A stretch of 63,454 nucleotides of DNA, filler included, from Octopus bimaculoides (Eukaryota), in assembly GCF_001194135.2 (NCBI RefSeq). It is 6 parts of 5 records of this genome, joined end to end, with 100 filler letters (N's around TTAATTAATTAA, not from the genome) between each part and the next. Parts side by side here need not be neighbours in the genome. Positions count along the whole stretch, not along the records: positions 11,403 to 26,313 come from NC_068985.1; positions 26,414 to 54,058 come from NC_068984.1; positions 54,159 to 57,116 come from NC_068983.1; positions 57,217 to 61,756 come from NC_068991.1; positions 61,857 to 63,454 come from NC_068987.1; 1 more part is not named here. One strand, 5' to 3'. The notes under the pieces were generated by a model, which made no database searches, was not told where the DNA came from, and was given only the letters and a program-made list of their open reading frames with translations. The position numbers and the translations under genes were made by a program. How positions within the stretch are numbered: position 1 is the first letter of the stretch; the number at the start of each line of letters is the position of its first letter. This document shows positions 12,828 to 63,412 of this stretch, piece after piece.

Positions 12828-13040
12828 TAATAAACAATAATCTCATGTCCATTGTCTGGAAATCTTTCATCACACGTTTGTGACCTCTTCAGCAACACTT
12901 TCCATCCTCATGTATGCTCCTGCTCTGCTTAGTACATTCTGTTCTATAGAAAGTGTCACTGAAGCAGTCACAGATGTGTGACGAAAGATTTCCGGACAAT
13001 GGACATGAGTTAAAATAAGAACAGTAATAAACAATAATCT
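12828..13040. mobile_element. Fold-back mini-element with 43-bp inverted arms, 16-bp flanking direct repeat and hammerhead-like cores
   Basis: Arms 12842-12884 and 12967-13009; direct repeat TAATAAACAATAATCT at 12828-12843 and 13025-13040. Confidence 0.75.
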
Positions 13041-13439
13041 ATTTTATCTATTAAATCATCTTTAGCTAATTATATGTAAATAATGATAGATCATGCCTGC
13101 ATGGAACATGGACATTAAATTATGATGATGATAACAATGAAGACAGCGATGGCAGCGGTGGTGGCAATGACAATGATGACAATGACGATGACGATGTTGA
13201 TGATGATGATGGTGATAGTAAGGATGATGATGGTGATGATGATGATGATGATGATAATTTTTTTAATGGCCAATCTATCTGGTAGAGTTGGATAAAGTCT
13301 AGTCATTCATATAGTCAATCAGGTTGTTCAGGCAGGTGTAATCCCTAGTGACTGGTGTAGAAGCATCTCAGTCAGCTGCTACTAGGGAAAGAGAAATGCT
13401 TTAGATAGGAGTAATTATAAAGGCATCAAATTGCCTCTA

Positions 13440-13866
13440 TAATTAAGGTAAGTTGTGGGAGGAGGAGACCCAAGAAGACATATGGAACAAAAAAACTAGA
13501 GGCTGATCTCAAAACACTGAATCATATGGAGAAGATGACAGAGGAGTGAGTTGTGTTGTGCATTGCTGTACTCCAGAAGACCTGCCCACCACAGCAGAAT
13601 TGAGATCCTAAGAGTGAGGTGCCACATAAAAAGCATTGGTGTGGGTGCTGGTGCCATGTAAAAAGCACTGGTGCTGGTGCCACGTAAAAAGCACTTAGTA
13701 CATTCTGTAAAGTGGTTGGCATTAGGAAGGGCATCCAGCCATAGAAACCAAACCAAAACAGACTGTGGAACTTGGTGTGGCTCCTCATCTTGCCAGTTCT
13801 TGTCAAGCCAGCCAACTCATGTCAGCATGAAAAATGAATGTTAAATGTTGTTGATGATGATGATAA
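13440..13866 (+). mobile_element. RTE LINE 3' end with tandem ~24-bp 3'UTR units and (GAT)n tail
   Basis: gtgctggtgccacgtaaaaagcac units, tgtaaagtggttggcattaggaagggcatccagc core and ...gttaaatg(atg)n tail, shared with 13890-14220, 14235-14846 and 16180-16490. Confidence 0.7.
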
Positions 13867-13889
13867 TATATATCACCCCCCTCCCCACA

Positions 13890-14220
13890 AGATTTTTGTC
13901 TTGTAAGTTACTTGGTGACTCTGTCAGTGCAGGTATCACTTAAAAAGCATCCAGTCCACATTGTAAAGTGGTTGGCATTTGGAAGGGTGTCCAGCTGTAA
14001 AAACCTTGCCAAAACTGACCTTGCCTGTGGTTGTGCCACATAAAAATCACTAAGTCCACTCTGCTGGGTTGTTAGTGTTAGGAAGGGCATTCAGCTGTAA
14101 AAATCCTGCCAAAACAGTCACAGAAATCTGGTGCAGGCTTCTGATTGGCTGGCTTCTATCAAATCACCACCGCTCATGCCAGCATGGAAGGCAGATGTTA
14201 AATGATGATGATGATGATAA
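13890..14220 (+). mobile_element. RTE-type 3'UTR copy (rearranged, core duplicated)
   Basis: Same core and (GAT)n tail as its neighbours. Confidence 0.7.
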
Positions 14221-14234
14221 TACATATATATATC

Positions 14235-14846
14235 TGCTGTGTGCAAGAGAGAAGACTACACTGGTTTGGTTATATGATGTGGATGGATGCTCCATAAAGA
14301 AGTGCCGATCTCTCAAAGTAGATGGAGCACATGGCAGTGGAAAACCCAGGAAGACATGGGATGAAGTGCTGAAGAACGACCTCAGAACACTGAACCTTGC
14401 AGGTGAGATGTCAAAGATTGAGATGCCGGGTGCCTTGTAATTAAGAAAAAGTGTACTCTGCAGCAGAAGTCTCTCTGGTGGTGTAAAGCACTCATGATGG
14501 TGTCACATAAAGTGCCTGTTCAGTGCCATGTAAAAGCGCCTGTATGGCGACACATTAAGGTGCCCATGTAGTGTCATATAAAAACATCCATGTAGTTCCA
14601 CATAAAAACACCTGTGCAGTGCCATGTAAAAGCACCTGTATGGTGCCATGTTAAAGCATCTGTGTGATACCGCATAAAAGCACCCAGCACAATCTGTAAA
14701 GTGGTTGGCATTAGGTAGGGCATCTGGCTGTAGGAACCATGCCAAATCAGACTGAAGTCTGGTGCAGCTTGCCAGATCTGGGCAAAGTATCCAACCCATG
14801 CCAGCATGAACAATAGACATTAAATGATGACAATGATGATGATGAT
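14235..14846 (+). mobile_element. 5'-truncated RTE LINE (ORF C-terminus plus 3'UTR)
   Basis: Peptide ..DGCSIKKCRSLKVDGAHGSGKPRKTWDEVLKNDLRTLNL is typical of an RTE C-terminus; ~22-bp tandem units at 14505-14690; (GAT)n tail. Confidence 0.8.
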
Positions 14847-14966
14847 CTTAAGCACAGCACTTAGAACTGTATCTGATTACACAGGGAAAGTATAGGATAT
14901 AAATAAAACTACTGAAACAATAAAAATAATATTATAAAATTCAGTTAAAATGTATGAAGTTCTCAC

Positions 14967-15101
14967 CTGGCAAATCCAAGTTGTTTACAGGCTACATTGG
15001 CATCCTTCATATCCCAGTTGTCATCACAGACATAACCCCAGCTGTTGTTACGGTAAATACTTATCAGACCAGCATTGTAGAAAGAGGTGTTACCAACGAG
15101 C
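14967..15101 (-). CDS. Coding exon 3 of a secreted SRCR-domain protein (first half of the SRCR domain)
   Basis: Acceptor tttgttttgcag, donor AG|gtgaga, 135 nt; translates (R)LVGNTSFYNAGLISIYRNNSWGYVCDDNWDMKDANVACKQLGFA(R), a canonical SRCR pattern (WG.VCDD.W...DA.V.C.QLGF). Confidence 0.92.
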
Positions 15102-15448
15102 CTGCAAAACAAATGTAGTTTGATTTACATTAATATCAACTGTTTTTATTTGTTGTATGTAACTCATTGTACGAATATAACAATGAACCAGGGAGGAAGG
15201 GCACAAGATAGTAGAGTACTGGTTAAGTTGGTAGGATACTAAGACCAAGTTGATAGGGTGCTATCCAAGTTTGTTGGGTAATGACTAAACTGGCAGGTTG
15301 TGGACCTTGTCTGTAGTTCCTGTCAATAACATGGACCTGGTCCCATGGTCAATATACATAGCTCTCAATGTCCCAGTCTGTTTTGCAGTTCCCTGCATTG
15401 TAAATTGGCATTGCAACATCAGTTGCCTTGAAATAATAACAATATATA

Positions 15449-15625
15449 GGCCACAGGCATAACTGTGTGGTTAAGATGTATGCATTGTAACCATGTAGCT
15501 TTGGGTTCAATACCATTACACAGCACTTTGGGCAAGTGTGTTCTGTTAATGCCCCAAGTCAACCAATGTCTTGAGCTAACTTGGTTGGCAGAAACTGAGT
15601 GGAAGTCAATTGTATATATATGTAC
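15449..15625 (+). mobile_element. tRNA-derived SINE 5' half
   Basis: Diverged copy of the head and body found in reverse at 21230-21380; B-box gggttcaatacc; runs into (TA)n and a gap. Confidence 0.7.
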
Positions 15626-15655
15626 ATATATATGCTTGTGTGTGTGTGTGAGTGT

Positions 15656-15702
<47 letters not shown>

Positions 15703-16125
15703 NNNNNNNNNNNNNNNNNNNNNNNNNNNNNNNNNNNNNNNNNNNNNNNNNNNNNNNNNNNNNNNNNNNNNNNNNNNNNNNNNNNNNNNNNNNNNNNNNN
15801 NNNNNNNNNNNNNNNNNNNNNNNNNNNNNNNNNNNNNNNNNNNNNNNNNNNNNNNNNNNNNNNNNNNNNNNNNNNNNNNNNNNNNNNNNNNNNNNNNNNN
15901 NNNNNNNNNNNNNNNNNNNNNNNNNNNNNNNNNNNNNNNNNNNNNNNNNNNNNNNNNNNNNNNNNNNNNNNNNNNNNNNNNNNNNNNNNNNNNNNNNNNN
16001 NNNNNNNNNNNNNNNNNNNNNNNNNNNNNNNNNNNNNNNNNNNNNNNNNNNNNNNNNNNNNNNNNNNNNNNNNNNNNNNNNNNNNNNNNNNNNNNNNNNN
16101 NNNNNNNNNNNNNNNNNNNNNNNNN

Positions 16126-16173
<48 letters not shown>

Positions 16174-16179
16174 CATTAC

Positions 16180-16490
16180 CAGCGTTGCCTTACTGGCATG
16201 TGAAAAACAACAGTCGAGCGAGGTCGTTGCCAGTGCCGCTGGACTGGCTCCTGTGCAGGTGGCACATAAAAAACATCATTCAAGTGTGGCCGCTGCCAGT
16301 ACCGCCTGACTGGCCCTCGTGCCAGTGGCATGTAAAAGCACCCACTACATTCTTGGAAGGGCATCCAGCTGTAGAAACTCTGCCAGATCAGATTGGAGAC
16401 TGGTGTAGCTATCTGACTTGCCAGTCCTCAGTCAAACCGTCCAACTCATGCCAGCATGGAAAGCGGACGTTAAACGATGATGATGATAAT
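16180..16490 (+). mobile_element. RTE-type 3'UTR copy
   Basis: Tandem gccagtgcc units, gggcatccagctgtagaaac core, gccagcatggaaagcggacgttaaacgatgatgatg tail. Confidence 0.75.
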
Positions 16491-16759
16491 GAAGATATTT
16501 ATATGTTTGTGTGCATCATTGTATTCATACTTGTCCCCTAACATTGCTTGACAACCAGTGTTAGTTTGTTTACACTGCCATAACTTAGTGGTTTGGCAAA
16601 AGAAACTGAATATATATTTTATTATTTCTTTTAACATCTAAAATAGTTGTTGGCTGGTTTGACTAGTTTTTGGAAATTCTTGATATGTAAATCATAATTG
16701 TTTTTATATCTGATTTGCGAGATTCTTTATGTGAATCTGTGTGTTGAAAAAACTTTTGT

Positions 16760-16948
16760 GTGTCGGAAGAGTCATTGTGCCAGTATTATCGACAAACTCA
16801 AGGTGACGAGCAGGTAGGAATGTTAACTCAATGGAGCAACATGAAATAAAGTGATTTGCTCAAGAACACAATGAATTGCTTGGTCCAGGGATCGAAACCA
16901 CAATCTTATGTCATGAATCCAACACCCTAACCACTAAGCCACATGCCT
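16760..16948 (-). mobile_element. tRNA-derived SINE
   Basis: Reverse complement gives ggcatgtggcttagtggttagggtgttgg...gtggtttcgatccct (A and B boxes). Confidence 0.7.
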
Positions 16949-17006
16949 GATGATTTAGGGAACTTAGAAAAATTGTAAAATGTTGAGAATGTTTTGTCAA
17001 TCTTAC

Positions 17007-17068
17007 CGGATATAGTTATGGCCAAGGGGCTCATAAATGATAGCTTTACGTTCAGATTCATGTGGAAG
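17007..17068 (-). CDS. Coding exon 2 of the SRCR-domain protein
   Basis: Acceptor ttttcattttgttctag, donor CG|gtaaga, 62 nt, phase 0 to 2; LPHESERKAIIYEPLGHNYI(R) joins exon 3 to give the canonical SRCR start YIRLVG. Confidence 0.85.
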
Positions 17069-18789
17069 CTAGAACAAAATGAAAATTTTATATTAATTTA
17101 TTTTACACACTCATACACACACACACATACATATACACACACATGCACATGCACACACACATGCATACAAAGGTGCACACATGCACACATTTCAATATTT
17201 CACTTTAGCATAGTGGTAGTAATAACCAGCTTTTAGAACTCAATACACGCATTAACTATAAAGTCAGCATTTTTAACCCTGAAAAAAAGAAAAACTATAG
17301 TTCCTGGCTTCTAAAGTCCTCAAGAACCTCCCCCCCCCACCCAAGCTGCTTTTATAGTTTTGACACTTTTTAACCCTTTAGTGTTTAAACCGGCCTAAAC
17401 CCGTTGTATCTAATTCCTCAACGAAATCTTTTAAAAAATAAACAAATTACGTTAGTGAATTCTTGTAGCTTTGAGATAATGTGAGGCTTTTTCTTCCAGA
17501 AAGCACAGAACTGGGANNNNNNNNNNNNNNNNNNNNNNNNNNNNNNNNNNNNNNNNNNNNNNNNNNNNNNNNNNNNNNNNNNNNNNNNNNNNNNNNNNNN
17601 NNNNNNNNNNNNNNNNNNNNNNNNNNNNNNNNNNNNNNNNNNNNNNNNNNNNNNNNNNNNNNNNNNNNNNNNNNNNNNNNNNNNNNNNNNNNNNNNNNNN
17701 NNNNNNNNNNNNNNNNNNNNNNNNNNNNNNNNNNNNNNNNNNNNNNNNNGAAAGCATGCAAAATAACCTGGAAAAGAAAAAAAAGACCCGTGAAACAAAA
17801 CTCCCTTTGTAGGAAACTTCGAGGTCCCCATCACCCTTCCCACCTTGCTTTTCTGGAAAAAAGTGGCTTGCAGAGGGTTTGGAGGTTAGATACGTTGAAT
17901 ACACGGGAAAAAAACCGTGGAAAAAAAATTATTTCACACCGAGGTATGAAATGTTTACCGAAAGAATAAAATTTTGTACCAATTATACCTGTATTTTAAT
18001 TAATTCAAATTAATGTACCTCATCTTGAAAAGTAGCAAAGTTTTTGTCGGTTGCCATCTGGGATAATTTTAGTAACAAATCAAACAAGCAAGATGCATTA
18101 AGAATTTCAATTTTAATGTTTATCCGTAATATTATAGCTTTTACACCTATTAATTAAATTTACCTGGCCATAAAAGTCAAATTTACTCAGAAAGATCAGC
18201 TAAAACTACATAACAATAAACCAGTGGTATATAAAGCACCCACTGACAAAGTTTCAAATCTGTACGTAAAAATGTTACAAAGTTACAAGCAAATATTGTG
18301 GACACCCCTCTTGAACCTGAATGATTCAAAATAACGTGAACAAATAAGCATTATATTTGGCAGATTAATATGAACACTAAAACTGTTTTTAGGCGTCTTT
18401 TTTTCTTGCACACACACATAACATCATCATTCCATAAAATTTGTTTATGGGGAGAAAAATAATTAAAAACATCAATAGATGTGTGAGTGAGAAAGAAACG
18501 AGGAGGGAGGTTTAGAGATGTGGCAGAAATAACAGCCAGATCTCCCTTAAATCACACATCTTTCCTCTGAAAATTTTTTAAAACTGAAAAATGTTTCTCT
18601 CACAGGTTTTAAGTATGTAGTGAAAAAAAAAATGGCCAAAATCGTTTCGTACTGGCGTGGTGATAGGGGTTCCTATAAGGTTGTTATCCACCCCTGATTG
18701 GAAATCTCCCGTATGACATGTATGCATGCTCAGTGACTTGCTTTAACTTCCGCAGACTAACGACTCACATACTGTACTGACCGGTTAAT

Positions 18790-19056
18790 ATGTCTCCGAA
18801 GAAATCACGCAAATACTGCTGTATATGCAGCCACTATAGAGGAAAGAATGTAGACACCAAAGTTATTTCACTACATAGATATCCTGCAAACGTAGCTATT
18901 CGTCGTATTTGGCTTCAGAGATCGCGACTTGTGAGGAAAGACTTTGTTTACACTGCAAATAGCCAAATGTGTTCCCAGCATTTCGTCAATTTTAATGGAC
19001 CATCGAAAGATCACCCCTTGCCATCCGTTTTTCCAAACAAAGTATTTAAAATATCA
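18790..19056 (+). CDS. THAP zinc-finger domain exon (transposase N-terminus of a DNA transposon)
   Basis: MSPKKSRKYCCICSHY..LHRYP..W..CSQHF..P.VF fits the C2CH THAP signature; ends at donor TCA|gtaagt (phase 0); downstream sequence lost in a gap. Confidence 0.8.
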
Positions 19057-19716
19057 GTAAGTGCATGATCATATACGCAGTTAGTAGATGAGTGAAATGT
19101 CTCTTTGATTTATCTCCTCATTAACAAATTAGAACATGTTAAAATTCAAGAGGGAAACAAATTCGAGTGGTGTACGTTGGGCTAAACACGAATGTTTAAT
19201 CTAATAATTGTTNNNNNNNNNNNNNNNNNNNNNNNNNNNNNNNNNNNNNNNNNNNNNNNNNNNNNNNNNNNNNNNNNNNNNNNNNNNNNNNNNNNNNNNN
19301 NNNNNNNNNNNNNNNNNNNNNNNNNNNNNNNNNNNNNNNNNNNNNNNNNNNNNNNNNNNNNNNNNNNNNNNNNNNNNNNNNNNNNNNNNNNNNNNNNNNN
19401 NNNNNNNNNNNNNNNNNNNNNNNNNNNNNNNNNNNNNNNNNNNNNNNNNNNNNNNNNNNNNNNNNNNNNNNNNNNNNNNNNNNNNNNNNNNNNNNNNNNN
19501 NNNNNNNNNNNNNNNNNNNNNNNNNNNNNNNNNNNNNNNNNNNNNNNNNNNNNNNNNNNNNNNNNNNNNNNNNNNNNNNNNNNNNNNNNNNNNNNNNNNN
19601 NNNNNNNNNNNNNNNNNNNNNNNNNNNNNNNNNNNNNNNNNNNNNNNNNNNNNNNNNNNNNNNNTATAGTGTGACTGTCCCTACCTCTTCTACACCTCAT
19701 CATGCTCATGGCCAAA

Positions 19717-20004
19717 TCAGTGAATGGTTGCTGAAAGCAGATTGGGATCAGGCAATACTTCACCGAGAGGAGATATAAGCTTCTGCTTATTCCTGTCTGA
19801 AGTATCGTCCGATACTTCAGACTTATCGTCCGATGAATTTACTTTGTTGACATTCTTCATCGACAGAATTTTTATACCTTTCAACCTTTCAGTCGAGTCC
19901 GCCTTTCTTCCAGTAATATACTGTCCATATAATCTTAAATATTTCTTTAACTCAGGCACAGTAAGTACTTCGATAGCTGAATCATCGAGCTGCTTTATAT
20001 CCAT
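19717..20004 (-). pseudogene. SAP-domain protein N-terminus (second gene of the same transposon relic, ISL2EU/Harbinger-like or similar)
   Basis: LTVPELKKYLRLYGQYITGRKAD..ERL fits a SAP motif, followed by LPDP; premature stop then gap. Convergent with the THAP exon. Confidence 0.6.
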
Positions 20005-20269
20005 GATAAGACGTAAAACAATAACAATAGCGTGCATAGTCTGCGGAAGTTTAATTGTCTACATGGAGCGCCGCCTAATCAAAGGAGATAACCTACTTAT
20101 AGGAAAGCCCTATAGGGTGGCGGAAGTGAAAAAATACTTTTCAAACTTTTTTCTTTTTTTTTTTCGTGAAAAGATGCCTCCACTCATTCTGAAGACTTTG
20201 ATGAAAAACATTGGAAAAATGCCCGTCAAAACGAGGAAATCCCAACCTACGTGGTCCGTCTGATCCGAA

Positions 20270-20610: not shown

Positions 20611-20616
20611 TCAATA

Positions 20617-21179: not shown

Positions 21180-21210
<31 letters not shown>

Positions 21211-38233: not shown

Positions 38234-39879
38234 GTAAGTATTAAAAGTTTTCAAAACTAAAATATTTATTAATGTTACTCCCATGGTACAGGCTACATTC
38301 CCAGATGACTTCTCATATTCGATAACATGAATCTTTTTTTAGAGAAATTGAACGCATTTTTAATATTCTAAATAATATCACTGTGAGAAGGCAACGTTAT
38401 TAAGCAAAATATTATTGCAAAGGACTTATAAGTGGTGATAAATGTTAGAATTGACACATAGGTATTTTGTTTCATAATTAATATTGGGTCAGTGGTTGTA
38501 AGAATTAATAGTTCTAATTCCTTGCCCAGCCTCGGCGAAATAAATTTAATTTCATCTCACCGAAAGGAAGAGAATGTTTCAGTCGTTTTTGTTTTAAAAT
38601 AACACTTCACATGCGGTGCTTAAGCAGGGCCTTGACTGTCTTAAACAAAATTTTAAATGTTTGAATATTCGTGAAGTACGATGAGCCAGGAAGCAGGAAT
38701 TCTTGTGAAATATTAAATGTGGGTGAATATTTTTTCGGTATCATTTAAGCTTCGGACAAAAAAACCTTGCGGTATTTCTTTCAGATCTTTGCGTTTCCGA
38801 GTTTAGCTTTTGCTTTTCATTCTCCTGGGGTTGAAAACATAAATTACCAACCAAGCACTAGAGTTGATGGTATCAACTAAACACCTTCCCTCAAAATTGA
38901 TGACTTTCTACCTAAATTAGAATCAGGACCATTGTTGTTGTTGGTTGTGCCGAGTTTGCATTTTGCATACAGCGACAACTCCATACGTAAGATTAGCTTC
39001 TGTTGCAGATCTTAATCATTAAGAAATTTCCCTAAGTTCTGAGAGATGTATTGTTGTTTGGAACAAACACTTTGATTTAGAAGTACTGTTTTTCCTTGTA
39101 TTCTGTCACTGCCTTATCTGATCCATTAATCTTGATCTCTCTGTCTCCATCGATTGACATATTTCAAAGTATGTCATTATTTGACATACCATTTTTGTTT
39201 AATTTTTAGTCTTTTCACGATTTCTGTTGTTTCCACTTTCTCCTTACAATTCTGTTATTTCAGCTTCTGTTTTTGTTATTGTTGGCGTCCTTGGAGAAAA
39301 CAGCGTTTTGCTTTGTTCATACAAGTAGCATTTTGTATTATTTTCCTGTTATTCATTTCTAGTCATTTTCATAGCCTTACGGCGCATATTTTGTAGCTTC
39401 ATAGTTATGCAAAAACTTTTTCAGTTCACGGAAAAAATAATCTTTGTTAGATTTTTGGAGGTTCTTTCTATATGAGGTCATTCGCTCTCATTCTTTTTCT
39501 GTCATATGTTACTAATCATTTACAATATTACAATTATAGCTGATTATTACGATGGCTTGAGTATTGTAGCCTGTTACTGAAATTTTTACATTTTGCTCTG
39601 TTTTAAGCATTAATCTAATTCGTTTGTCATATATCTCTTTAGCATTTTCTTTCATTGATGTGGCACTTGGATGTCATTGTTCTTTTATTTCTGTTTAACA
39701 AGTTTAATAAGAATAAATAATGTGCTAGCGTCGATTCAATCGACAATACATCTCCTCTAGAAATGTTTAATTCTGTGATAAAAATTAGATGGTATCGACA
39801 AACTAATTAATGTTACTATTGTTATTATTATTAGCTTTAGTAAAACATAAGTATTCAAAGGAGAATCTTTCTTTTGCAG

Positions 39880-40443
39880 GTTGTATTGGAAAAGCAGCAA
39901 ATATAATGCTGTTGATGGATTCATCTAGCAGTATTTGGATTGTGGATTACAAAAAGCAATTAGATTTTGCACAAAACCTAGTTGACAACTTCGATATTGG
40001 TACATCTGACACACAAGTTAGAATGGGAGCGATCACATTTAGTAATAGAGCTCATTTAGAATTCTCTATAGACAAATATACTGACAGCAGGAATCTAAAG
40101 AGAGCTCTTGGCAACATTCCTTACAGATCCGGACAAACGAACACAGCTGAAGCTTTACAATTGTTGAAAAAAGAAATACAGCCCAAGCTAAGTATATATA
40201 AATCACCTTTCATGGCAATCGTCATTACAGACGGCAGGTCACGTGATACGATGGCAACATCACTGGCAGCCAAGAAATTGCACGAATTGGGTGTTCATGT
40301 TTATGCGATTGGCGTCGGAAGCAACTGTGATATCAACGAATTAAGATCAATAGTGAATGACCGGAATAAGAATGTACGTCTCGTAGACAGTTATTCAGCG
40401 TTACAAGGAATTGCAATATCATTTGGGGTAAAAACATGTCGAG
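39880..40443 (+). CDS. vWA/mucin-like protein, exon 3 (von Willebrand factor A domain, intact MIDAS)
   Basis: Acceptor cttttgcag, donor G|gtgaga, 564 nt; DSSSS (DxSxS), GQTNT, ITDGRS; flanking Cys residues (CIGK..KTC). Confidence 0.93.
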
Positions 40444-40563
40444 GTGAGAGTCAATTTATTTTACTTTATTTTTATTTTACAACCTTTGTAATGCTATTGA
40501 GAACATCAGAATATAAGGAAAATATAATGTTCTTATTAATATTATTGGAGGTCGTGACACAAA

Positions 40564-41461
40564 TACGAGGTCTGATCAATAATTATCCGCAATGTTGCCA
40601 TAATAACGAAGCTGAAACACGCTGAGTGAAGCTGCTTGCACAGATTGACCTTGAACTCTGTTGTGTATGAGTTCTAAGTTTTAACGTTCGAGCTCACTTG
40701 CGCTGTTTTCAACAGCGCTTGGAACGAAGGTATGTAGCGTACGATCGTCGCATTGACCATGACAGAAAGTTGTTATGGCGATACCTGCTCAGAGGCCTAC
40801 GCAAAGTTGCAGAATGTGTATGGAGAGGTGTGCATGAGCTGCACATAAATGTACGAGTGGTTCAGACGCTTCCAAGATGGTCGAAAAAATGTCGATATTG
40901 ATGAACGTTCTGGGAGACCCGCAACCAGCAGAACTGAGAAAAACATCGCAGATATTGGTGCAGCTGTGAGGGGAAATCGTCGAATCACCATCCGTTAGTT
41001 CTCAGAGGATGTGAAGATTAGTTACGGTTCAGTTCAGTCCATTATCACTGAAGATTTGGGTATGAGATGCGTGTCTGCCAAGTTTGTGTGAAAACTGCTT
41101 TTAGCTGACCAAAAAGACACTCGGGTTTCAGTTGCACAAGATCTCCTTGATTGTGTCGAGAACGGTGAAAACTTTTTGAAAACTTTGCGTAGACCTCTGA
41201 GGAGGTATCGCCAAGCTTTTGGCAAAATTTGATGCAAATTCTCTGCTCAACTTTCTCTGTAATGGTCAATGCGATGATCACACGTAACACAACTTCTATC
41301 AAAGCTCTGTTGTAGATAGCGGAAGTGAGCCAGAACATTAAACTTAGTGCACATGCACAGCAGCAGAGTTAAAGGTCAATCTGTGTCAAGCAGCTTTACA
41401 CTGCGTGCTTTAGATTCGTTACTATAGCAATAGTCGGGATACATTTTGATCAGACTACGTA
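40564..41461. mobile_element. TA-flanked mariner derivative built from two inverted 5' ends
   Basis: TA-CGAGGTCTGATCAA...TTGATCAGACTACG-TA; both arms encode the transposase N-terminus in opposite directions. Confidence 0.85.
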
Positions 41462-42106
41462 GATAAAATATAAACATGCATGAAATTATCAAATTATCAT
41501 AAAATTATCAAAACTTGATGTACTAAAAATGCAATTCTTGCCAAAGATTTATTTTTAATAATTTACAGTGCCATGTTTTATATTTGATAATTTTCAGTAA
41601 AACAGAAATAGAAATAAGCACATTGTAGGGATCTTAAATACACACTTGTTCACTAATCAATGCATTCAAATAAAGCATTTCATTAGAAAATTTGAGTTGC
41701 TGATTAGATTTTGAGCGAACTATCACTTACACAAACTTGACAGAGACTGAAGTGTTTTACACTAAAAACTGCGATATCTCCATAGTTTAATGTTTAACAC
41801 GTTTTTATACAATTAAGAAATATGGTTAACTTGCTGTCAAAGAGAGATCACTCAATTTTCCTTTCAAATTTCATGTATCAGTTTGAATATTAGATCGCAA
41901 CTAAATGTATATAATGTGTATTTAAGATTCTTACATTTCATATATCTGTATGAAATTAACTTATAATCTTTGAAAATATCAAAACATACACTAATCATAG
42001 AATGATTCTTAATTGCTGAGCAGTTTTTGATATTCCTATATTAAGAATTTTCTTTCACATGGCTTTATATGAAACAGAATTAACAAATGAATGATTTATT
42101 TTACAG

Positions 42107-42673
42107 ATATCACCACAACTTCATCACAATCACCATCAACAACAGTAAAAACATCTTCGACAACTTCTATACCAACAACGACGAATGTGGTAGCTACAAG
42201 CACGAAAATTAGAACTTCCAATGGTCCAGCTATAAGCACTCAACCTGGAACCACTACAGAACTTGAAATAACAATGAATGCAGAAAAAGCTAAAAAGCTT
42301 AAAAGTGTTACTGAGCATGAGACAATTTTAGTCACAAGCACGGGGACTGGCGTAATTATAGAACCCGAAAAAACAATGAAAACAGTACCTGATACAGCTA
42401 GCACAGTTCTTAAGACAACAAACGAGGAAGAAACGACCATGGGACTTGAGACAACAATGGAAATAAATAGGACCACAAACTCTGAAACAGCTCCTTTTTC
42501 TGAGAATACAATTGCAGAAAGTGAAAGTACAATGGAAGCCAGGAAAATAACTATAGCGCCTATAAAAGCAGAACATTCAATGGCTACTGACTTACTAACC
42601 ACTTCCTCAATGACAACTACGACACTGAAATCCGGTTCTGAAAATTCTGCTGAAATTCAAAAAGACGAATCTA
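42107..42673 (+). CDS. vWA/mucin-like protein, exon 4 (Thr/Ser/Glu-rich mucin-like linker)
   Basis: Acceptor ttttacag, donor A|gtgagt, 567 nt, phase 1 to 1, open; DITTTSSQSPSTTVKT... Confidence 0.88.
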
Positions 42674-42814
42674 GTGAGTAGTGAAAATTATGCATCTTCT
42701 TGTAAGTGTAGAAGTCTGTTTAGTAGAGTTAATTATGTTTACGCCTGAAAATAAAGTGTTTCACGTGTAAAACAATAAAATAAAACGATTAAGTAAAAAC
42801 TGCTAAATGCGGGC

Positions 42815-43075
42815 CTGGGATCTGGGATTCGATGCAGCAAGTATGATTACAGGTGAAGAGACGAGTGTGTCGGGGGTGCCTAGATGAAAGAAATGTGAAA
42901 CCAGCCAACTTCAATGAACAGAGGCCATGATAGTAGCGATATAAAAGACGGATAGAGAAGTCAACATGCTTGTGGCCAGAGGCTGAATTTCATCCAGATC
43001 ATATGTGTGCATTGCAGTAGCACCACCCTACAAGTGGGAGCAGTACTCCAAAGTCAGCCTTACTTGAGCCTTGTA
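42815..43075 (-). mobile_element. CR1-like LINE C-terminal fragment
   Basis: EYCSHL*GGATA..LQPLA..SLSVFYRYYHGLCS..LAG..RHPRHTR is typical of CR1/Zenon C-termini. Confidence 0.7.
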
Positions 43076-43970
43076 AATTGAGCAAAACAATTAAAAATGT
43101 TCATAGATTTATGCTCCTTTTAATATATTTTGATCACATTTCTACAAGGTTGTAAATTGTATCTTTTGATTTCTCATTATTTATTAATGCAACTCTACTG
43201 GGACTATGACTGTGACTAGGTCGCAGATATGTGACGAAAATGTTTGGCATCTCATGAAATATATCTAAAATTTAAGATGAATTTAAAAGCTTTGTTCGTT
43301 ATTAATTAGCTGAAATGGCTCATCCACGATGTACTTCCTTCGGGTTCAACATCCGACCTCAAATTGCATCTCTTGCAAAACCAATACAATTCCAATTTTA
43401 ATATTTTTAAAATAAAAATGCATTCAGATATTGAAATGCAAAATTATCATCCAATTTAGTATTGATATATATGTACTTAACATATATTCTGAAATACTAT
43501 CTTAAAATTACTTTAATATACGATATAAACTGTAATAATATAGGATAGTATAGAACAATATCTGGGAAATTTGATGTTTTGCATAACCACAGTATTTCAA
43601 ATTTATAGGAGAGAAAAATTAGATTAGAGTTAATGTATTTTCATGAGCGGTAAAAGCATTCCTGAAGTGAAATGGTCCTCAGTTCTTTGGAACAACTTTA
43701 CAATATTGAAAACTATAAATCATTCAACAGTCATAATTGATGTTAAATCTCTGATAGATTTTCACATTTGGTTGATTGCTTCTAATTCGACAAAACGCGC
43801 TGTAACTGGCATTTTTGTCTTCATATTAAATGCGTTTTAAACGATGCAAAAATTCAAAATTGAACGCATTCATTGAATGTTTAGTTAGAAATCCCAAATA
43901 TGAATTTTGCTGTGATTATTTAAATATTATTCGTGATTTAATGCAATTTAATTTTATCTTCTTTTTACAG

Positions 43971-44530
43971 GTTCAATTGTCTTCGGATATGACCTCTTAT
44001 CAATGGGTGCATACCGAGCAAATATGATTACTCAATTTATTAATGCTGTTATAGCGTATACTGGATACGACAATTTTGCTGTTTTATCTTTTACACATTG
44101 TCCAGAATCCTTTAACGTACCAGCTACAGCAGTTAAATCTTCACAAGGAAGTGCTTTTAACCAAAATGTAAAAGTAACTGTGCCAAATTTATCTGATTTG
44201 ATTCGAGAAATAAGAGAAAAATATCAACACGAGCAATCAAATAAAGTCGGACCTCAGACAGCTGTTCTGTTTCTAGACCCGTCTGTAACTGTACTTACAC
44301 CAGATGTTGTGGACGAAACGCAAAAGCTAAAGGATGTAGGATTTACAGTGTACATTGTGACTGTTGGCTGGAAAGAATGGCCGATACCTGAAGTAATCTA
44401 TATGATGAGCAGTAAACCTTACAAAGCTCACCTTTTCAAGGCGCCTACGTATAGCAGATTATTGTACAAGGCCCGATATATGCCTTTTCAATTCAAGAAA
44501 TTACGTAACAAAAAGCGAAAGCATCAATAA
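43971..44530 (+). CDS. vWA/mucin-like protein, exon 5 (degenerate vWA-like domain, stop)
   Basis: Acceptor ctttttacag, phase 1; IVFGYDLLSM..TAVLFLD..KLKDVGFTVYIVTVG..MSSKP retains vWA strand/helix patterns but lacks DxSxS; ends KKRKHQ*. Confidence 0.85.
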
Positions 44531-47664: not shown

Positions 47665-48195
47665 TCGAGAAGGAAAAGACATCTTTAGCTCAATGGCTAA
47701 CATGAATTCAATCCATTCGGTAAATACGGTAAATAACTCTGGACTCCGGACATGTTTTAATCTTTTCGGACGTTTTCAGAGTAGCGTATACTTCACCGTA
47801 TTAGTTGAAGTACAAATGAGTAAACAATTAAGTAAATGTACCACGCCGACGAGGGATATGCGTGAGAATTTAGATAAAACAGTAGACCTAATCATTGCGG
47901 TGAAAAATACGTTAACTCTAACATAACTAATGTCTTTTTTTTTTTCAAGTGGATGATATTTCTGAGGAATGAACCGCCGGAATTTTTCTTTAAATATACT
48001 GACATTTTGTTAAAAAAAATTTCCTGTTCAATGTTGTTCGTCTATTTAGTCATCACTACTTTGGCAAATAATAAGATATGCGTTCTTCACTGAAGAATAA
48101 TGGTACCGAAACGTGCATGAACTGTTAATCATGTCTACCGGAACGATTAAAATAAATGTGATTAATGTTTGAGCTAATGATGTCTTTTTCTCATC
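47665..48195. mobile_element. Old fold-back element with degenerate hammerhead-like core
   Basis: Terminal inverted match aaagacatc.ttagctcaa (about 47675 and 48170); right arm holds TTCA-CTGAAGA..GAAACGT..TGAA; a decayed mirror lies near 47770. Confidence 0.45.
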
Positions 48196-56162: not shown

Positions 56163-56196
<34 letters not shown>

Positions 56197-56957
56197 TCTT
56201 CTGACATACATTTAGCTATTTTTAAAAACCCGAGACAAATACATACAATATGACTGAGAAAGATTGAAGCAGGTAAAATGGATAGAGTTTCAAACGTTAA
56301 TTGTTTTCACAAAACTGGCAAAATGAGCATTTTAGCCAGTGGTTGCATCATATAATTTTTTCAGAGTGTTCACCAGTTTATCTCCATTCATCAAAATGCA
56401 TAGGGCTTCCCCGGAACAGATTTCAAGATCTTGAAAGCGTGTTATATATGGATAAGCGCTTTTTATTACTGTCCATGTGATGTTGTATTCCACTCTACTT
56501 TGGGTAGAGTGCGATGCAACAGTTTGTGAAGTATTTTAAGCTTCAACAGAATACTATTTTACTCTGCCAGTGGTAGTCTAGTACTGTTATCTCCACCTTT
56601 TATTTTAGTGGGGTTATTAAAAAATAATAAAAGAGACAGAAGTAGTATTAATACCAAAAGGCAATATTTATCCCCATTTAAAAGTGGATGTTCTGTTGGA
56701 ACACAGAATATTGCGATAGTCACCATGAGAGAACCTCTCATATGGATTTTGTGGTATATTACGCCTTGGTATGAATACTGCTCCTGTCGCTTTGATTAAT
56801 TTTTAATAAGCCGGCTGGCTATTTGCGATACCTAATCAGGCTCTGATTTGGCAGTGATTCTATGTATATCGGTAGCAGAGCGGTTGTTGCTGCTTCCAGT
56901 AGTCAGGCGTTTACCGTTGATACGGCTAATGAAGGCCGAACTCATCCTGACATCTAT

Positions 56958-57002
<45 letters not shown>

Positions 57003-60000
57003 GAGGAAATTGCAGTTGGTGATTGGGAGAGGGAGACACAGGACCTGGATGGATGGAAGGAAGACAGTGCATAGTGGTTGTTTGGGGTTTGAGAGGGTGG
57101 GAGTTAAGTATGAGAGNNNNNNNNNNNNNNNNNNNNNNNNNNNNNNNNNNNNNNNNNNNNTTAATTAATTAANNNNNNNNNNNNNNNNNNNNNNNNNNNN
57201 NNNNNNNNNNNNNNNNCCAATACGCTACTCTTTATTAGAGTTCGGCTAGTCCATTCATTCAGTCCTCCAGGGGTGTCAATGACTCCCGCCACAACATTTC
57301 CCCTTTTGAGATTGAGTTCCGGTGGAACTTGATATTATTATTTTTGTTTATTTTCTTTCATCACATCTCCCCGTTTGAGATTTTCCTCCTAGGGAAGTTT
57401 AATATTTCTTCCGTTTAGGCATTACTTCGAACTGTCATGTTTGTTTCCTCTTTCTTGTGCTGCTACGACTAGGTTCGATTTCTTGTCGCGTTGGCGCATC
57501 AAAAGTGTCGTATAACACTTCCATGGGCATCTCTTTTCTTTTTTTCTGTTTAGGTTTGGTGTTATCCTATAAACCCTCAAGAATTGTGTCATCGATTAGC
57601 TCGTTTCTTGATTTCTTTAATGTTCTTTTAAATGTATCCATGAACTTTTCCGCTTGTCCGTTTGATCTTCATATGTTCAATTGAGTACATCGTGCAAAAA
57701 TTCTTAAATTCATTTGGCGTGAATTGTATACTGTTATCGGAGACTATGATATCCGGGACACTATACCTAACAAAAAGTTCGTGTAGAAATTTCACTCTTA
57801 CCGTGGATGTCGGTTTTTGTAGTTTGGCCCATGGACTATCGGTTTTGGGCCAAGGTTGAAACTTTATAGGTGGTGATTTCGCTGTAAGAGCACAAGCTCT
57901 GCAGGATTTTACCAACTTCTCAATATCTAGATCCACTTTGGACAGTAAATTTAACTCTTCATAAGCGACTTCATCATAGAAATTCCTGGATGTCCAGTGT
58001 GAAATTCCTTTAAAATTCGATCTTGTAGTGAAGTAGGCATTACGACCCTCTGTGTTTACATAAGCACATTATCACATATTGAATACAAATTCGAAACTGA
58101 GTTACATTCAGCCACACATATTTTTTATTTGTTTCTTCTGATCTCTATTTTTTTTCATCCGTCTCTGCCTTAATTTTTATTTCCTCCAATGTCACAGGAA
58201 ATTCAGGCACAACATTGTGCAATTTATTTTTTATTTCATTTCCGGATTTTAGTGCCGCTATCACTGTGTCTTCTAGTGGTTCACTGTATTCTGGTATTCA
58301 CCTCGACAAACCATCTGCATGTCCCAATTTTTTCGATGGCAAATACTCCATTTTGAATTCGTAATTCAGTAGGATTGTTCCCCAGTGCTGCAATCTGTTG
58401 GCTGTATGTGTGGGGATACCCTTTTTGGATCCATAGATCGACAATAATAGTCGGTCTGCAGACGGAACCTTCTTCCATATATAAATTTATGGAATTTTTT
58501 ACCGCAGATATGGCTAATGCTTCTTTTTCTATTTGACAGTAACTTTTCTCAACCGGCAATAATGAATGCAAAGCAAGAGCTACTGCTTTCAGGCTACCAT
58601 TTTCATATTTGTGTAGAAACACAGCTCCAATACTACTTTCACTAGCATCTGCTGCCACTACTATTTCTAAATTCGGGTCAAAATGTGATAACGACAATTC
58701 CATCGTTAAGACGTTTTTAATTTCTTCAAAAGTTTTCTGGCATTTGTCCGAACAGTTCCACTTAACGTTTTTTTTTCAACAAGTCATTCAGGGCTGCTCT
58801 TAAATCGTGCATATTCGGTATATATCGCTGATAGTAATTTGCGAGCCCCCAAAATGCTTGTAACGTTTTAATGTTTGTCGGGGACGGCATATTTTCTATT
58901 GCACTCGCCCTAGACGGGTCTGGTCTGCATCAATTTTCATCAATAATCTGCTCTAGATATTTTATTTTTGGCATAAAAAATTCACACTTTTCCTCGCTGA
59001 GCCTAAATCCATAATCTTTTATTATTTCGAAGACCTTTTTAACATGCTCATCATGCTGACCCTGAGATTCACTTTTTATGAGTGTGCTGCCAAGGTAAGC
59101 TACAGCGAAATCCGAACTTGCGAGCATAATGTCCATAATTTGTTGGAAAAAGCCAGGTCCTCCCTTTATACCAAACGGAAGTCGATTAAATTTATACAGC
59201 CCTTTATGTGTATTTATTGTCAATAATTTTGAACATTCCTCATCGACTTTTACCTGAAAATATGCTTCAGATAGGTCCAATTTTGAAAAACATTTCCTCC
59301 ATTCAACTTCGCGAAAATTTCGTCCGGACTTGGTAACGGGTAACTTATATGGCATCAGACATTCGTTTAATCCCATAAAAAAAATCAGCGCATACTCGGA
59401 TTTTATTTATTTTTTCTTGACATAAACTTCTGGGGACTCTCATTTTGTGTAATTAATTTTTTCAATAACGCCAAGCTTTACAAGTCTATCCAATTCTTCG
59501 TTGACTTGTTTCAACGCTGCGAAAGGTACCGTTTATTTTTGTTTAAGTACCGGTATAGCGTTTTCTTTCACTTGAAACTTCGCATCTGTTTTGGTACAAA
59601 GACTCAATTCATCAGAAAAAACTACAGGAAATTTGTTTTAAAATTCCTTTTTAAAACCCTCTGACGCCTTATTTGTACTGGCGGAAGAATCATTCACATT
59701 TTTACAAAAAATATTTATGGGGAGATCCCATAAGTTAAATAGTTCCATCCAGTCTGTTCCAAATAAATTTGTCGTGTTTTTCAACACAAGAACTTTAGCT
59801 TTCAAGCTTTTTCGCCCATAAAATGCAATATTTTCCTGAAACACCCCGTGCAGTTTTCGAAGTTTTCTTTAATGTATCTCTATTAATTATCGTGATATCA
59901 CTGCCCGTATCCAATTGTAACTTGATATTCACATTATTCATTTTTATGGACACAAATTTCTTTTTCTGAGCCTCACTTAGAATTTTTGTTAACAATACAT

Positions 60001-60382
60001 TCTTTGTAGTATCTATTAAGTTTGATCCTTTTTTTTTGTTTCGTTATACAATGTGATCTTTTATGTCCGATTTTTCCACAATCAAAACATTTAAGATTTT
60101 TAAAAGGACAATTACGTCTAAAATGTAAACCTCCGCACTCATAGCATGAATTTGGTGTTGACGACGTTCGTTTTTCGTTTTTCTTGTCCGTTTCAAATCG
60201 ACACGCCTGTATCTGAGAGCAATCTTTTTCTTCAATTTTGTCGGCGCCATGTCTTAAATTTATAATCCTCTGGTATTCTTCAGCCATTGCCTGTAGAGTT
60301 AATTTTTGGCCCTGTTCTAAATTTGTTAATATACGGAAACGTATAACTTTTCTTGTAGTTAACAAAAATTAGTCATTTGAAC

Positions 60383-60800
60383 AAATCCGGGTTTAGTAGT
60401 TGTATGCTGTCAACTTGATTTGACAGTCCCCTTAAGGGAATAATACTACTGTTGGTTAGACATAGGAAGCTGCACCACTTACTGTCGGCCTTGACATATT
60501 TCCTGTGTCCTTATGTTTACAAGGAGGAGACAAGCACCTCCAACCAGCTAAGCCTCCATCCAGAGACATGTTTCTGAGTCTTTTCTCGTCATCAGTCTGG
60601 AATAGCATGAACTGCTCGTCGAAGATGCCTGTCAAGGCCGACAGGAAGCGGTGCAGCTTCCTAGGTCTAACCAACAGTAGTATTATTCCCTTCAGGGGAC
60701 TGTCACATTAAGTTGACAGCATACAACTACTTCATCGTATCACTACTGCATAAATCCCTCTGAGAGATTTAGAAATGTATTATTTCTAAATCCGGGTTTA
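60383..60800 (-). mobile_element. 392-bp fold-back insertion in gag with 13-bp TSD, 101-bp inverted arms and a hammerhead in the loop (Penelope-like non-autonomous element)
   Basis: TSD AAATCCGGGTTTA at 60383-60395 and 60788-60800; arms 60396-60496 and 60630-60730 (6 mismatches); 57-bp tail; removing it restores gag colinearity (KFKLN*LNPDLFK). Confidence 0.85.
60559..60601 (-). ncRNA. Minimal type I hammerhead ribozyme motif
   Basis: TCCAGA-CTGATGA-CGAG-AAAAGA-CTCA-GAA-ACATGT-C-TCTGGA: 6-bp stem I, intact core, stem II with one terminal mismatch, palindromic stem III, GUC cleavage triplet. Confidence 0.8.
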
Positions 60801-62339
60801 ACTAATTTAATTTGAATTTTTCACACTCTCAGTTAACGATCCCAGCATAGGTGACAAAATCTTCACCAGCCAACAAATATTGAACAGGGAGCTTCTTTCA
60901 CTGAAAATTCTCGATAATAAATTAATTGTTTCATCGAAATAAATCTCGCCTAGTTTCTTCGGCACAATATAATTACAGTATTTTTCGTGTTCGGCAGGGG
61001 ATAACTTTCTTAAAACTAGTCGCAACTTCTCGTCATTCCAGTTTTTACATTCTTCTTTGGAGATTTCTTGGGTACCTTCTAAATTATGCAGAAAAAGTAA
61101 TACCTACCGTGTTATAAATAAATTATCCAATTGAGTTTGCTACGCCGTCAAACGAGGACGAACCTGAAGTATATTCAGACTTCTTCAACATTACTTCCAG
61201 TAACTTTTGGTATTGCCGTTGTAACTACTGTTGTTATTGCTGTTGCAACTGTACCACGCAAGCCAATAAGTCTTCCATTTTAATAATTTTTTCTTTGATT
61301 TCATACAAACAAAAAAAAAAATTTTACGTCCGACGCCAGCTTCGAATTTCTCGTCGCCACTTTTATATCCTTGACATCTCCTGGCCAGATCTTGTAACGT
61401 AATTGTTGCCTGACTCATAAGTAGTATTGTTTGTTGCACACAGCACTCTTGTTTTTCAGTTGTACTAAGTGCTTTTGTTAGCACTCTTGTTTTTCGTTCG
61501 AATGGACTTTAGTGCGACTTTTTTTTTTATCCCAAAAGACATTTCCTCTAGCTAGTTAACATTGCACAGCTGTATCTGATATATTGTGAGCAGGGGAATC
61601 GAAGCCCTACCGCATTCTAGCGACGGGACCAACACACAGTAATTCGAACAACTATTACGGGTTCGGTGCGAATTCTGTTCACACTAATACACCGGGTTCG
61701 GTGCGAGTTCAACGTAGAACTAACACACCGCTCTCACCGACTTCTACCGACTTCTANNNNNNNNNNNNNNNNNNNNNNNNNNNNNNNNNNNNNNNNNNNN
61801 TTAATTAATTAANNNNNNNNNNNNNNNNNNNNNNNNNNNNNNNNNNNNNNNNNNNNGGGAGAATTTGATTAATTTACCATGGTTTTGTTCTATATTTTTT
61901 TCCCTTTTTTCTCAGTGGGGTGTTGAATTTCCTTATTTAAATGTGTTAGCAATGGTTAAGTTTGGGTTTGTATTTTTGAATGAAAAAGGTTTCCTTATTT
62001 AATCTAATCTATATTTTCTTACCCAGGTTGATACAATACTCCACTTATATAACATAAGAATTTCCAAAAGTTTTTCAGGATATATCTTTGTGATCCTAAG
62101 ACTGTTCTTAATCTGTTACTGCATTATATATTTCACTTATTTTACCAATTTTTTTTTAAATTTTGGCTTTTTTAATTTAGGTTTTTAGTGGAATGACAAA
62201 TTGTATAGAGACAGCATAATTCGACAGAAACTGTCAGTGTTGGATCGTTTTATTTGTTTTGTCTTCATTATCGGTTTGTCTCTCCGTCTATCAGTTAATA
62301 TATTTTTTATATCTTACTTGTTTCAATCATTAAATTGCG

Positions 62340-62640
62340 GCCAATGCTGGGGCATCACATTGATGAATTCTTAGAGGAATGAATGGATGCCACTACCTTA
62401 GACCTTGTATTTTTTTATAGTTATTTTTGCTGAACCGCTATACTACAGGGATGTAAACACAGTAACACTGGGTGTCAAGCGGTTTTTCCCGGACAAACAC
62501 AGGCAAAAGCACACACACATACACACACACACATACGCGCGCACACACACTTGCGCATGCACACGTACGCACACGCACACACATACATACACACTCGAAC
62601 ACACACATACACACACACATATATATAGTTGAAATTTACA
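62340..62640 (-). mobile_element. SINE 3' half with expanded (CA)n; its 5' half resumes at 62800-62885
   Basis: Same family as 21023-21380, interrupted by the element at 62645-62790. Confidence 0.65.
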
Positions 62641-62716
62641 GAAAAACTAAAAACGAAGACAGGTCTTTAAACAGCAAGCAGGTGTATTACTTTGACGCTA
62701 GGGAAGGTGAAAACGT

Positions 62717-62752
62717 CTTTTACGTTTCGAGCCTTCGCTCTTCAACAGAAAG
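62717..62752 (-). ncRNA. Variant minimal hammerhead motif in a Penelope-type terminal-repeat fragment (about 62645-62790)
   Basis: CTTT-CTGTTGA-A-GAGC-GAAG-GCTC-GAA-ACGT-A-AAAG: all three stems pair; core has A6 to U and an extra A after A9. Confidence 0.6.
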
Positions 62753-63412
62753 GAACATGAGGAAATAAACAGAGAGAGAATAAAAAAAACTTTTGGAGTT
62801 AGCAGCCAGGATTCTTTCAGTTTCCGTCTCCCAAATCCACTCACAAACTTGATCAACCCGAGGTTATCGTAGAAGACAGTTGCCTGTATATATGTGTGAG
62901 TGTGTTTGTATGTGTGTGTTTGGGTGTGTGTGTGAGAGCGTGTGTATTTGCGTAGAGAGAGAGAGAGAGTAATTCGCCGACTATCGCTGGTGTTATATTC
63001 CAAAACCTCCGGCGATAGGTGAAAATCCGCGAAGTAATGTATTTTTTTCATTTGTATATATATTTTTTATCATAAATGCAAAACAACTCGTAAGCTTAAA
63101 TAATAAACCACGATATGTGAGCCTCGATATAGCGACAGATTACTATATATTTGTTATTATTCCTTGCAGCCGAGAGCTGCGGCCATGCTGGGGCACCGGC
63201 ATTAGCTTTCCTGCACATTCACTAAACATTATACCACCTTTGATATATGCCACTTTGTGACTAAGGGAGTTTGATGACGCTGTCCTCATCTGCGTTTCTT
63301 GCCTGGATCCAGGTCCACCTGGAACTTGTGACAGGCGGATACACAATTTTGTTTGGAAGTCACCTACATCCATAGATATATATGTATGTGTGTGTGTCTG
63401 TGTGTGCGTACG

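What the first reader, a model, noticed from the sequence alone, without database searches (positions are those of the whole stretch)
12828..62790. Recurrent theme: several unrelated short elements converge on fold-back structure plus minimal hammerhead
In one 63-kb window there are hammerhead-like motifs at about 12850-13000, 48085-48122, 60559-60601, 62717-62752 and possibly 10510-10559, three of them inside inverted-repeat elements. A Penelope endonuclease-end fragment at 7900-8090 could belong to an autonomous partner family. This suggests a large, diverse population of ribozyme-bearing non-autonomous PLE derivatives in this genome, which would also be a rich source of dsRNA for ADAR editing (inference).
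Basis: inference. Interest (0 to 1): 0.72.

Follow-up and report, generated by a model that had tools for sequence, protein, structure and literature searches.

The report
Penelope retroelement ends carrying hammerheads
Four of the five flagged spots are worn end-pieces of four different Penelope-type jumping-gene families, each carrying an already described motif predicted to be a small self-cutting RNA; only two fold back on themselves, and only one family has no protein gene, so this is a known arrangement rather than a new system.

Summary
Four of five sites are real members of multi-copy families with minimal type I hammerhead motifs (A 12.9 kb, B 60.6 kb, C 62.7 kb, E 10.5 kb); D (48.1 kb) is single-copy and breaks the consensus. 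Strict motifs exceed shuffles (9 vs mean 2.0 in 512 kb sampled). But this is shared ancestry, not convergence. Longer relatives of A, C and E continue upstream into PLE endonuclease-type frames, so they are 5'-truncated ends of coding Penelope-like elements. Only A and B fold back, in the published layout: inverted 5'-truncated arm, one-sided ~55-nt tail, 11-16-bp TSD. Only B is non-autonomous: a 351-nt ORF-less head-to-tail unit of retrozyme size with PLE insertion scars. Paired arms join one tailed and one tailless end (B 17 of 20), which likely reflects priming on both nicked strands. No genomic or RNA pile-up at the predicted cut; B reads are sparse passengers with a weak A-to-G signal. 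The 7.9-kb fragment is a likely endonuclease relic, not shown to be B's partner. The scan already reported this layout in this genome and the twin-priming reading in other genomes.

The parts
7903..8127 (+). Open frame, likely the decayed C-terminal end of a Hydra/Penelope-type GIY-YIG endonuclease; no hammerhead seen behind it
   Evidence: 5 relatives at 71-78%; relative L094 reads as an endonuclease-like frame by eye; BLASTP to family E frame 29% over 41 aa, E 3e-4; Pfam no relevant hit
10481..10612 (+). Site E: truncated, decayed 3' end of a Hydra-type PLE family; motif C3 at 10513, H17 at 10559, U16.1 changed to C; not a fold-back
   Evidence: 4 of 19 relatives carry the endonuclease end upstream
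12828..12843 (+). Site A: left 16-bp target-site duplication
   Evidence: read directly
12840..12948 (-). Site A arm 1 with intact minimal hammerhead motif (C3 at 12892, stem II 6 bp, stem III AGAUUU, triplet UUC)
12949..13032 (+). Site A arm 2, head-to-head with arm 1; motif at 12959-12992 with A9 changed to C
13025..13040 (+). Site A: right copy of the 16-bp duplication; its first 8 bases also match the element
48086..48122 (+). Site D: both core boxes but C at 16.1 and no sound stem II; single copy; chance match or very old relic
60383..60395 (+). Site B: left 13-bp target-site duplication
   Evidence: related empty site in L011
60396..60636 (-). Site B tailless arm (unit positions 53-294) with hammerhead motif at 60560-60600 (C3 at 60595, C.A at the base of stem II, stem III ACAUGU, triplet GUC)
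60632..60787 (+). Site B tailed arm (unit positions 195-351), tail at about 60732-60787
60788..60800 (+). Site B: right 13-bp target-site duplication
62619..62803 (-). Site C: 5'-truncated 3' end of a likely Neptune-type PLE ending in a TA/CA microsatellite; motif at 62717-62752 with U at position 6; not a fold-back
   Evidence: 2 of 24 relatives carry an endonuclease-like frame upstream

Best explanation
Sites A, B, C and E are copies of the hammerhead-bearing 3' ends of four separate repeat families that were likely all inserted by Penelope-like retroelement enzymes; longer relatives of A, C and E run upstream into endonuclease-type reading frames, while B is a 351-base unit without a reading frame that likely borrows those enzymes. 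Likely mechanism: the PLE protein binds the RNA 3' region, nicks both target strands about 11-16 bp apart (the TSD), and reverse transcription starts at one of two RNA sites about 55 nt apart (the tail). Copying usually stops early, so short ends pile up. When both nicked ends prime, two truncated copies are joined head to head, giving the fold-back with one tailed and one tailless arm. The motif is predicted to fold only as a dimer through its palindromic stem III, and the templates that were copied appear to have been uncut. Shown: families, motifs, upstream frames, arms, tails, TSDs, tandem junction of B. Inferred: enzymes, priming, dimer folding, any cleavage.
For: A: L187, L189, L190 (3 of 29 non-self loci) match RT plus GIY-YIG proteins upstream by tblastn, E down to 1e-46; of 12 such proteins scanned, 2 hit RVT_1 and 2 hit GIY-YIG, all below the curated cut-offs. 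C: 2 of 24 relatives carry a GIY-YIG-like frame (Atlas score 0.90 with GIY-YIG on 13% of members, a lead only). E: 4 of 19 relatives; its stem III 'ACTA T TAGT A' equals that listed for Penelope-1_HM of the Hydra clade. B: unit 351 nt, longest stop-free stretch 50 codons; the tail precedes the head in at least 29 of 30 junction-query loci (read by eye) and in all 8 head-reaching copies printed from the less biased set. 22 of 27 distinct B insertions have an inverted arm, and 17 of the 20 with full arms join an end at 292-298 with one at 338-351; in A, 17 of 33 distinct inverted insertions had both ends at a defined site and all 17 were mixed (counted by eye). TSD of 11-16 bp in 19 of 30 B rows against 6 of 300 random pairs. 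Stem III stays palindromic in a B subfamily: ACATGT 58, ACTAGT 11 of 78 contexts. Literature describes the layout and two RT start sites with both strands extended.
Against: No full-length element of any family was retrieved; Pfam gave no relevant hit on 9 fragments and two word-based searches found nothing. No coding partner of B was found (best non-family match E 5e-4). Clade labels rest partly on recalled motifs. Majority motifs depart from the canonical core in C (U6 in 28 of 33) and B (A at 11.1 in 57 of 57). 3 of 20 full-arm B insertions do not show the two defined ends. Family sets are top-scoring or exact-match copies, not random ones. Arkhipova et al. favoured self-priming for inverted structures.
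Confidence: 0.85

Rival explanations
1. One reading: unrelated non-autonomous elements converged on a fold-back plus hammerhead design and form one population of PLE parasites.
For: Families share no sequence beyond the core; two sites are fold-backs; B is ORF-less; motifs exceed shuffles.
Against: A, C, E have coding upstream parts; arm lengths and junctions differ from copy to copy, so the fold-back is made at each insertion and is not an inherited design; C and E are rarely inverted.
Confidence: 0.07
2. Family B is an active retrozyme that is cut by its hammerhead and propagates through abundant 351-nt circular RNA.
For: Unit size within the 350-390 bp given for mussel retrozymes; head-to-tail junctions; conserved palindromic stem III; circles would explain more-than-unit copies.
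Against: 0 of 30 arms end at the predicted cut; 410-552 reads per about 12 million records, 78-81% running on into unlike flanks, no start or end pile-up at the cut; no long arrays seen. The libraries are unstranded cDNA and could miss small circles.
Confidence: 0.15
3. The fold-backs arise by self-priming or template switching of a single cDNA and not by priming on both target strands.
For: Proposed for PLE inverted repeats in PMC3846280 (passage); the B tail ends in a 9-bp hairpin.
Against: Both outer ends fall on two fixed RNA positions next to the TSD while the inner junction varies; a single fold-back does not by itself predict one tailed and one tailless outer end.
Confidence: 0.25
4. 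The motifs are chance matches in AT-rich, repeat-rich DNA.
For: Shuffles give about 2 strict hits per 512 kb; site D is single-copy and fails two positions.
Against: A, B, C, E keep the motif as family majority at a fixed place near the 3' end; Poisson P about 2e-4 for 9 against 2.0.
Confidence: 0.02

Closest known systems
Minimal type I hammerheads of metazoan PLEs (Cervera and de la Pena 2014, PMC4209133; parts 1-2 of 4 read)
   Same: Short stem I, extra base before stem II, palindromic stem III, thousands of dispersed copies in many families, pairs 100-700 bp apart on opposite strands, read as truncated PLEs.
   Different: Octopus is not named in the parts read; family C has U at position 6, a change I did not see in the passages read (A6C is reported with low activity in PMC3088659, passage).
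EN+ PLE insertion units with inverted 5'-truncated pLTR, one-sided tail and TSD (PMC8557442 passages; PMC3846280 passages; PMC11167929 parts 1-2 of 4)
   Same: Inverted arm, tail at one end only, TSD, microsatellite targets for C and E, two end points.
   Different: Tail about 55 nt against 30-40 nt; TSD 11-16 bp against 8-10 bp in Adineta; near-strict pairing of tailed with tailless arm is counted here.
Hydra-clade PLEs (PMC8557442 File S1/S2, part 2 of 59 read)
   Same: Family E: odd 9-nt palindromic stem III identical to Penelope-1_HM, TA-repeat target, endonuclease end upstream.
   Different: Its motif differs from the listed Hydra-1_Obim motif, so it is another family.
Metazoan non-LTR retrozymes (PMC7229834 passages; bioRxiv 10.64898/2026.07.22.740005 part 1 of 5 and passages) and non-autonomous Chlamys such as MRC1 (PMC8557442 passage)
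   Same: Family B: ORF-less 351-nt unit, type I motif, head-to-tail junctions, long TSD.
   Different: Minimal, not canonical, motif; dispersed partial tandems and inverted pairs, not long arrays; no circular RNA shown; carries full PLE insertion scars.

Membership tests
Minimal type I hammerhead | Core CUGANGA / GAAA / UH | tested here: met
   Family majorities of A, B, E; window copies A arm 1 and B intact
Minimal type I hammerhead | Core intact in family C and at site D | tested here: not met
   C has U6 in 28 of 33; D has C at 16.1
Minimal type I hammerhead | Stem II closed by a 10.1-11.1 pair, usually after one extra base | tested here: inconclusive
   Met in A, C (G-C) and E (A-U); B has C.A, as does PLE-X1_cBra in File S2
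Minimal type I hammerhead | Palindromic stem III allowing dimers | tested here: met
   AGAUUU, ACAUGU/ACUAGU, ACGU, ACUA-U-UAGU
Minimal type I hammerhead | Self-cleavage | not testable with these tools
   No pile-up of ends at the site in genome copies or reads; not a test of chemistry
EN+ Penelope-like elements (A, C, E) | GIY-YIG endonuclease C-terminal to RT, upstream of the motif on the same strand | tested here: met
   A by tblastn; C and E by translation and motif only, weaker
EN+ Penelope-like elements (A, C, E) | RT phylogeny within a named PLE clade | not tested
   No tree was built; clade labels are by motif, partly recalled
EN+ Penelope-like elements (A, B) | Inverted 5'-truncated copy, one-sided tail, TSD | tested here: met
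Non-LTR retrozymes (B) | ORF-less unit of a few hundred nt with type I motif in head-to-tail repeats | tested here: met
Non-LTR retrozymes (B) | Canonical motif with loop 1-loop 2 contacts | tested here: inconclusive
   3-bp stem II and C.A closure look minimal; loop contacts were not modelled
Non-LTR retrozymes (B) | Abundant circular or linear monomer RNA | tested here: inconclusive
   Low, flank-linked reads in three cDNA libraries, which may miss small circles

The most novel reading that the evidence does not exclude
Family B is a retrozyme-sized RNA unit mobilised directly by Penelope-type enzymes, and its insertions record an obligatory two-site, two-strand priming reaction: one RNP starts reverse transcription at both RNA start points, one on each nicked target strand, from uncut multimeric RNA. 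B would then be a 351-nt natural minimal substrate for PLE insertion and structural evidence that animal retrozymes use PLE machinery.
Probability: 0.5. Interest if true: 0.45.

Novelty: new member of a known kind. Interest (0 to 1): 0.27.

Why it matters
The general picture is known, so the finding mainly adds four annotated families and an estimate of some tens of thousands of intact motifs in this genome (extrapolated). Two points have some value. Family B ties a retrozyme-type unit to PLE insertion scars, complementing a 2026 preprint that argued the link from co-occurrence and trees. The near-strict pairing of tailed and tailless arms makes the unresolved PLE insertion mechanism testable with a short template. 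Fold-backs inside host transcripts may feed A-to-I editing, but that is only hinted at here.

Tried and rejected
Rfam scan: no hammerhead among 117 matches. The repeat finder was swamped by N runs and microsatellites and replaced by masked self-BLAST. Site D as a family member: no relatives of the motif; one relative of the downstream block (L087) has a decayed core-like string at a similar distance by eye, too weak to count. Core-like string on the minus strand at 8096: antisense to the frame and not kept in relatives, rejected. Pile-up of 5' ends at B's cut site: 0 of 30; one copy (L236) begins at unit position 126. Partner of B among fetched loci: none. Pfam on 9 fragments, none relevant; homologue searches, nothing. 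Run search: no RNA holder listed. Editing at an 8% threshold on L236: no excess (X21: A>G 22, T>C 20, G>A 27, C>T 17). At 4% on L271 the whole-type counts, RNA against DNA, were not significant (Fisher p 0.37). Sequence look-up of B in earlier findings: nothing. Two recalled papers (the 2015 octopus genome paper and Lunse et al. 2017 on dimeric PLE hammerheads) were not held, so an earlier description of these families or of the U6 variant there cannot be excluded. Searches 'octopus'+'hammerhead' (20 of 51 listed), 'Penelope'+'twin priming' and searches showed no paper describing these families; subscription papers, Repbase and the bioRxiv supplements were not seen.
Full report
Setting. The window is six stretches joined by spacers from a 2.34-Gb genome, likely an octopus (inferred; earlier scan notes say the same). 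The five sites lie on five contigs, so their meeting in one window says nothing about linkage.

Observation. A strict type I descriptor finds A (minus, 12892) and B (minus, 60595) in 60,134 non-N bases, against a mean of 0.1 in 20 dinucleotide shuffles; freeing position 6 adds C. In 60 stretches of 10 kb taken at round coordinates on the 28 largest contigs (511,742 non-N bases) there are 9 strict hits against 3, 0, 1, 3, 3 in five shuffles (Poisson P 2e-4). The excess of about 14 per Mb would give some tens of thousands of intact motifs genome-wide (extrapolation). Fold-backs exist at A and B only. Rfam gave no hammerhead match.

Site A. Two head-to-head arms lie between 16-bp direct repeats. 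One arm keeps an intact motif, the other has A9 changed. The family is abundant (4 loci in the 512-kb sample, 2 of them inverted). Its majority motif over 71 arms is a textbook minimal hammerhead with a 6-bp stem II and a self-complementary AGAUUU. Searching with the 63 nt upstream of the core gave 29 other loci; I translated 6 of them, and tblastn over all loci showed 3 (L187, L189, L190) matching long proteins upstream on the same strand. These proteins came from a phmmer search with the L189 frame (630 hits at E up to 0.001); of 12 scanned, 2 hit RVT_1 and 2 GIY-YIG below the curated cut-offs and 8 hit nothing. A Cys-rich linker before the endonuclease fits the Neptune/Nematis type (PMC8557442 passage). 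A is thus the truncated end of a coding PLE. Inverted arms occur in 8 of 25 mapped copies of this set (4 more gave no match). Arms end at two points about 53 nt apart. The window copy is unusual in stopping short of both.

Site B. Two head-to-head arms lie between 13-bp repeats inside a Gypsy-type element; L011 holds the related empty site. The unit is 351 nt with no stop-free stretch above 50 codons. Upstream of its first base lies its own tail, in at least 29 of 30 loci found with a junction query (biased, as the query held 7 tail bases) and in all 8 head-reaching copies printed from an exact-pattern set. That pattern has 453 exact matches. Its first 30 matches are 27 insertions: 22 have an inverted arm, 20 of them full, and 17 of these 20 join an end at 292-298 with one at 338-351; the other 3 have one end elsewhere. 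In A, 17 of 33 distinct inverted insertions had both ends at a defined point and all 17 were mixed (by eye). TSDs of 11-16 bp were found in 19 of 30 rows, against 6 of 300 random pairs. Stem III is ACATGT in 58 and ACTAGT in 11 of 78 contexts, both palindromes. Stem II closes with C.A, which also occurs in a listed PLE motif. No arm of 30 ends at the predicted cut, in line with the report that uncut RNA is the main template.

Site C. A 185-nt piece without arms, ending in a TA/CA repeat; 5 loci in the sample, none inverted, 1 of 24 in the family set. Two of 24 relatives run upstream into a GIY-YIG-like frame; the Atlas lead is weak; the Neptune label is from recalled motifs. The majority has U at position 6 (28 of 33); changes there lower activity (PMC3088659 passage).

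Site E. A decayed copy; the majority motif of 19 copies is intact and of the Hydra type. Four of 19 relatives carry the endonuclease end upstream; 1 of 19 is inverted.

Site D. Both core boxes are present but 16.1 is C and stem II does not form. The motif has no relative. It may be chance or a very old relic.

The 7.9-kb fragment. An open frame with five decayed relatives, weakly similar to E's endonuclease end, without Pfam or homologue support. It is likely a PLE relic, but it shares nothing with B and no intact partner was found.

RNA. Three raw RNA runs of one study gave 410-552 reads on a B dimer per about 12 million records; about 80% ran on into unlike flanks, with no pile-up at the cut and no A-to-G excess at 8%. 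On the arms of a transcribed copy (L271, found) at 4%, the RNA runs showed A>G plus T>C at 39, 37 and 30 places against C>T plus G>A at 17, 14 and 10, and the DNA contigs 9 against 6 (Fisher p 0.37). Among the 40 rows shown of 95, all 7 differences nearly absent from DNA were A>G or T>C (18 of 40 rows are of these types; P 0.002). Reads pool many copies and come from other animals than the DNA, so this is a hint. Heavy editing of Penelope repeats is reported in lizard (PMC5625713 passage).

Mechanism. The likely route is nicking of both target strands, reverse transcription from two RNA start points, early termination, and head-to-head joining when both ends prime. Both-strand extension and two start sites were shown in vitro for a lizard PLE; self-priming has been proposed instead. 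I reached the two-strand reading before one search showed that the scan had noted it in 36 findings in at least 14 genomes; those notes are not independent evidence.

What is known. Opposite-strand pairs of minimal hammerheads from truncated PLEs (PMC4209133, parts 1-2 of 4), the inverted arm and one-sided tail (PMC8557442, PMC3846280, PMC8969392, passages), retrozymes of 350-390 bp (PMC7229834, passages) and their PLE origin (bioRxiv 10.64898/2026.07.22.740005, part 1 of 5 and passages) are in print. My paper searches showed no description of these particular families; two recalled papers were not held, and the preprint's supplements were not seen.

Verdict. Real, abundant and diverse, but explained by known PLE biology. 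Three of four families are truncated coding elements and one is a new non-autonomous member. Interest 0.27.

Noticed in passing
Not in the window.
   Followed up: partly
window 57217-61756 and L011: Gypsy-type LTR element (gag-pol frames on minus); two independent family-B insertions sit in this family about 190 bp apart, each locus holding the other's empty site.
   Followed up: partly
L271:1360-1730: A family-B insertion without the hammerhead (two arms, 13-bp TSD) lies in a spliced, well-expressed transcript; read depth falls about tenfold beyond it.
   Followed up: partly
window 40564-41461: Internally deleted mariner-like element with about 210-bp inverted ends; another mariner-like frame at 3119-3532.
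   Followed up: no
window 39807-44527 (+): Frames resembling von Willebrand A domains (39807-40622, 43952-44527) around a Thr-rich frame (42091-42678), likely exons of a host gene; label from recall.
   Followed up: no
families A and B, just before the first end point: Both read ATACAAC a few bases upstream of the tailless end and both have tails of about 55 nt; could be a shared start signal or chance.
   Followed up: no
window 12467-12711: Three tandem copies of an 85-bp unit just left of site A.
   Followed up: no
window 56611-56812: Short 47-bp inverted repeat without a hammerhead core.
   Followed up: no
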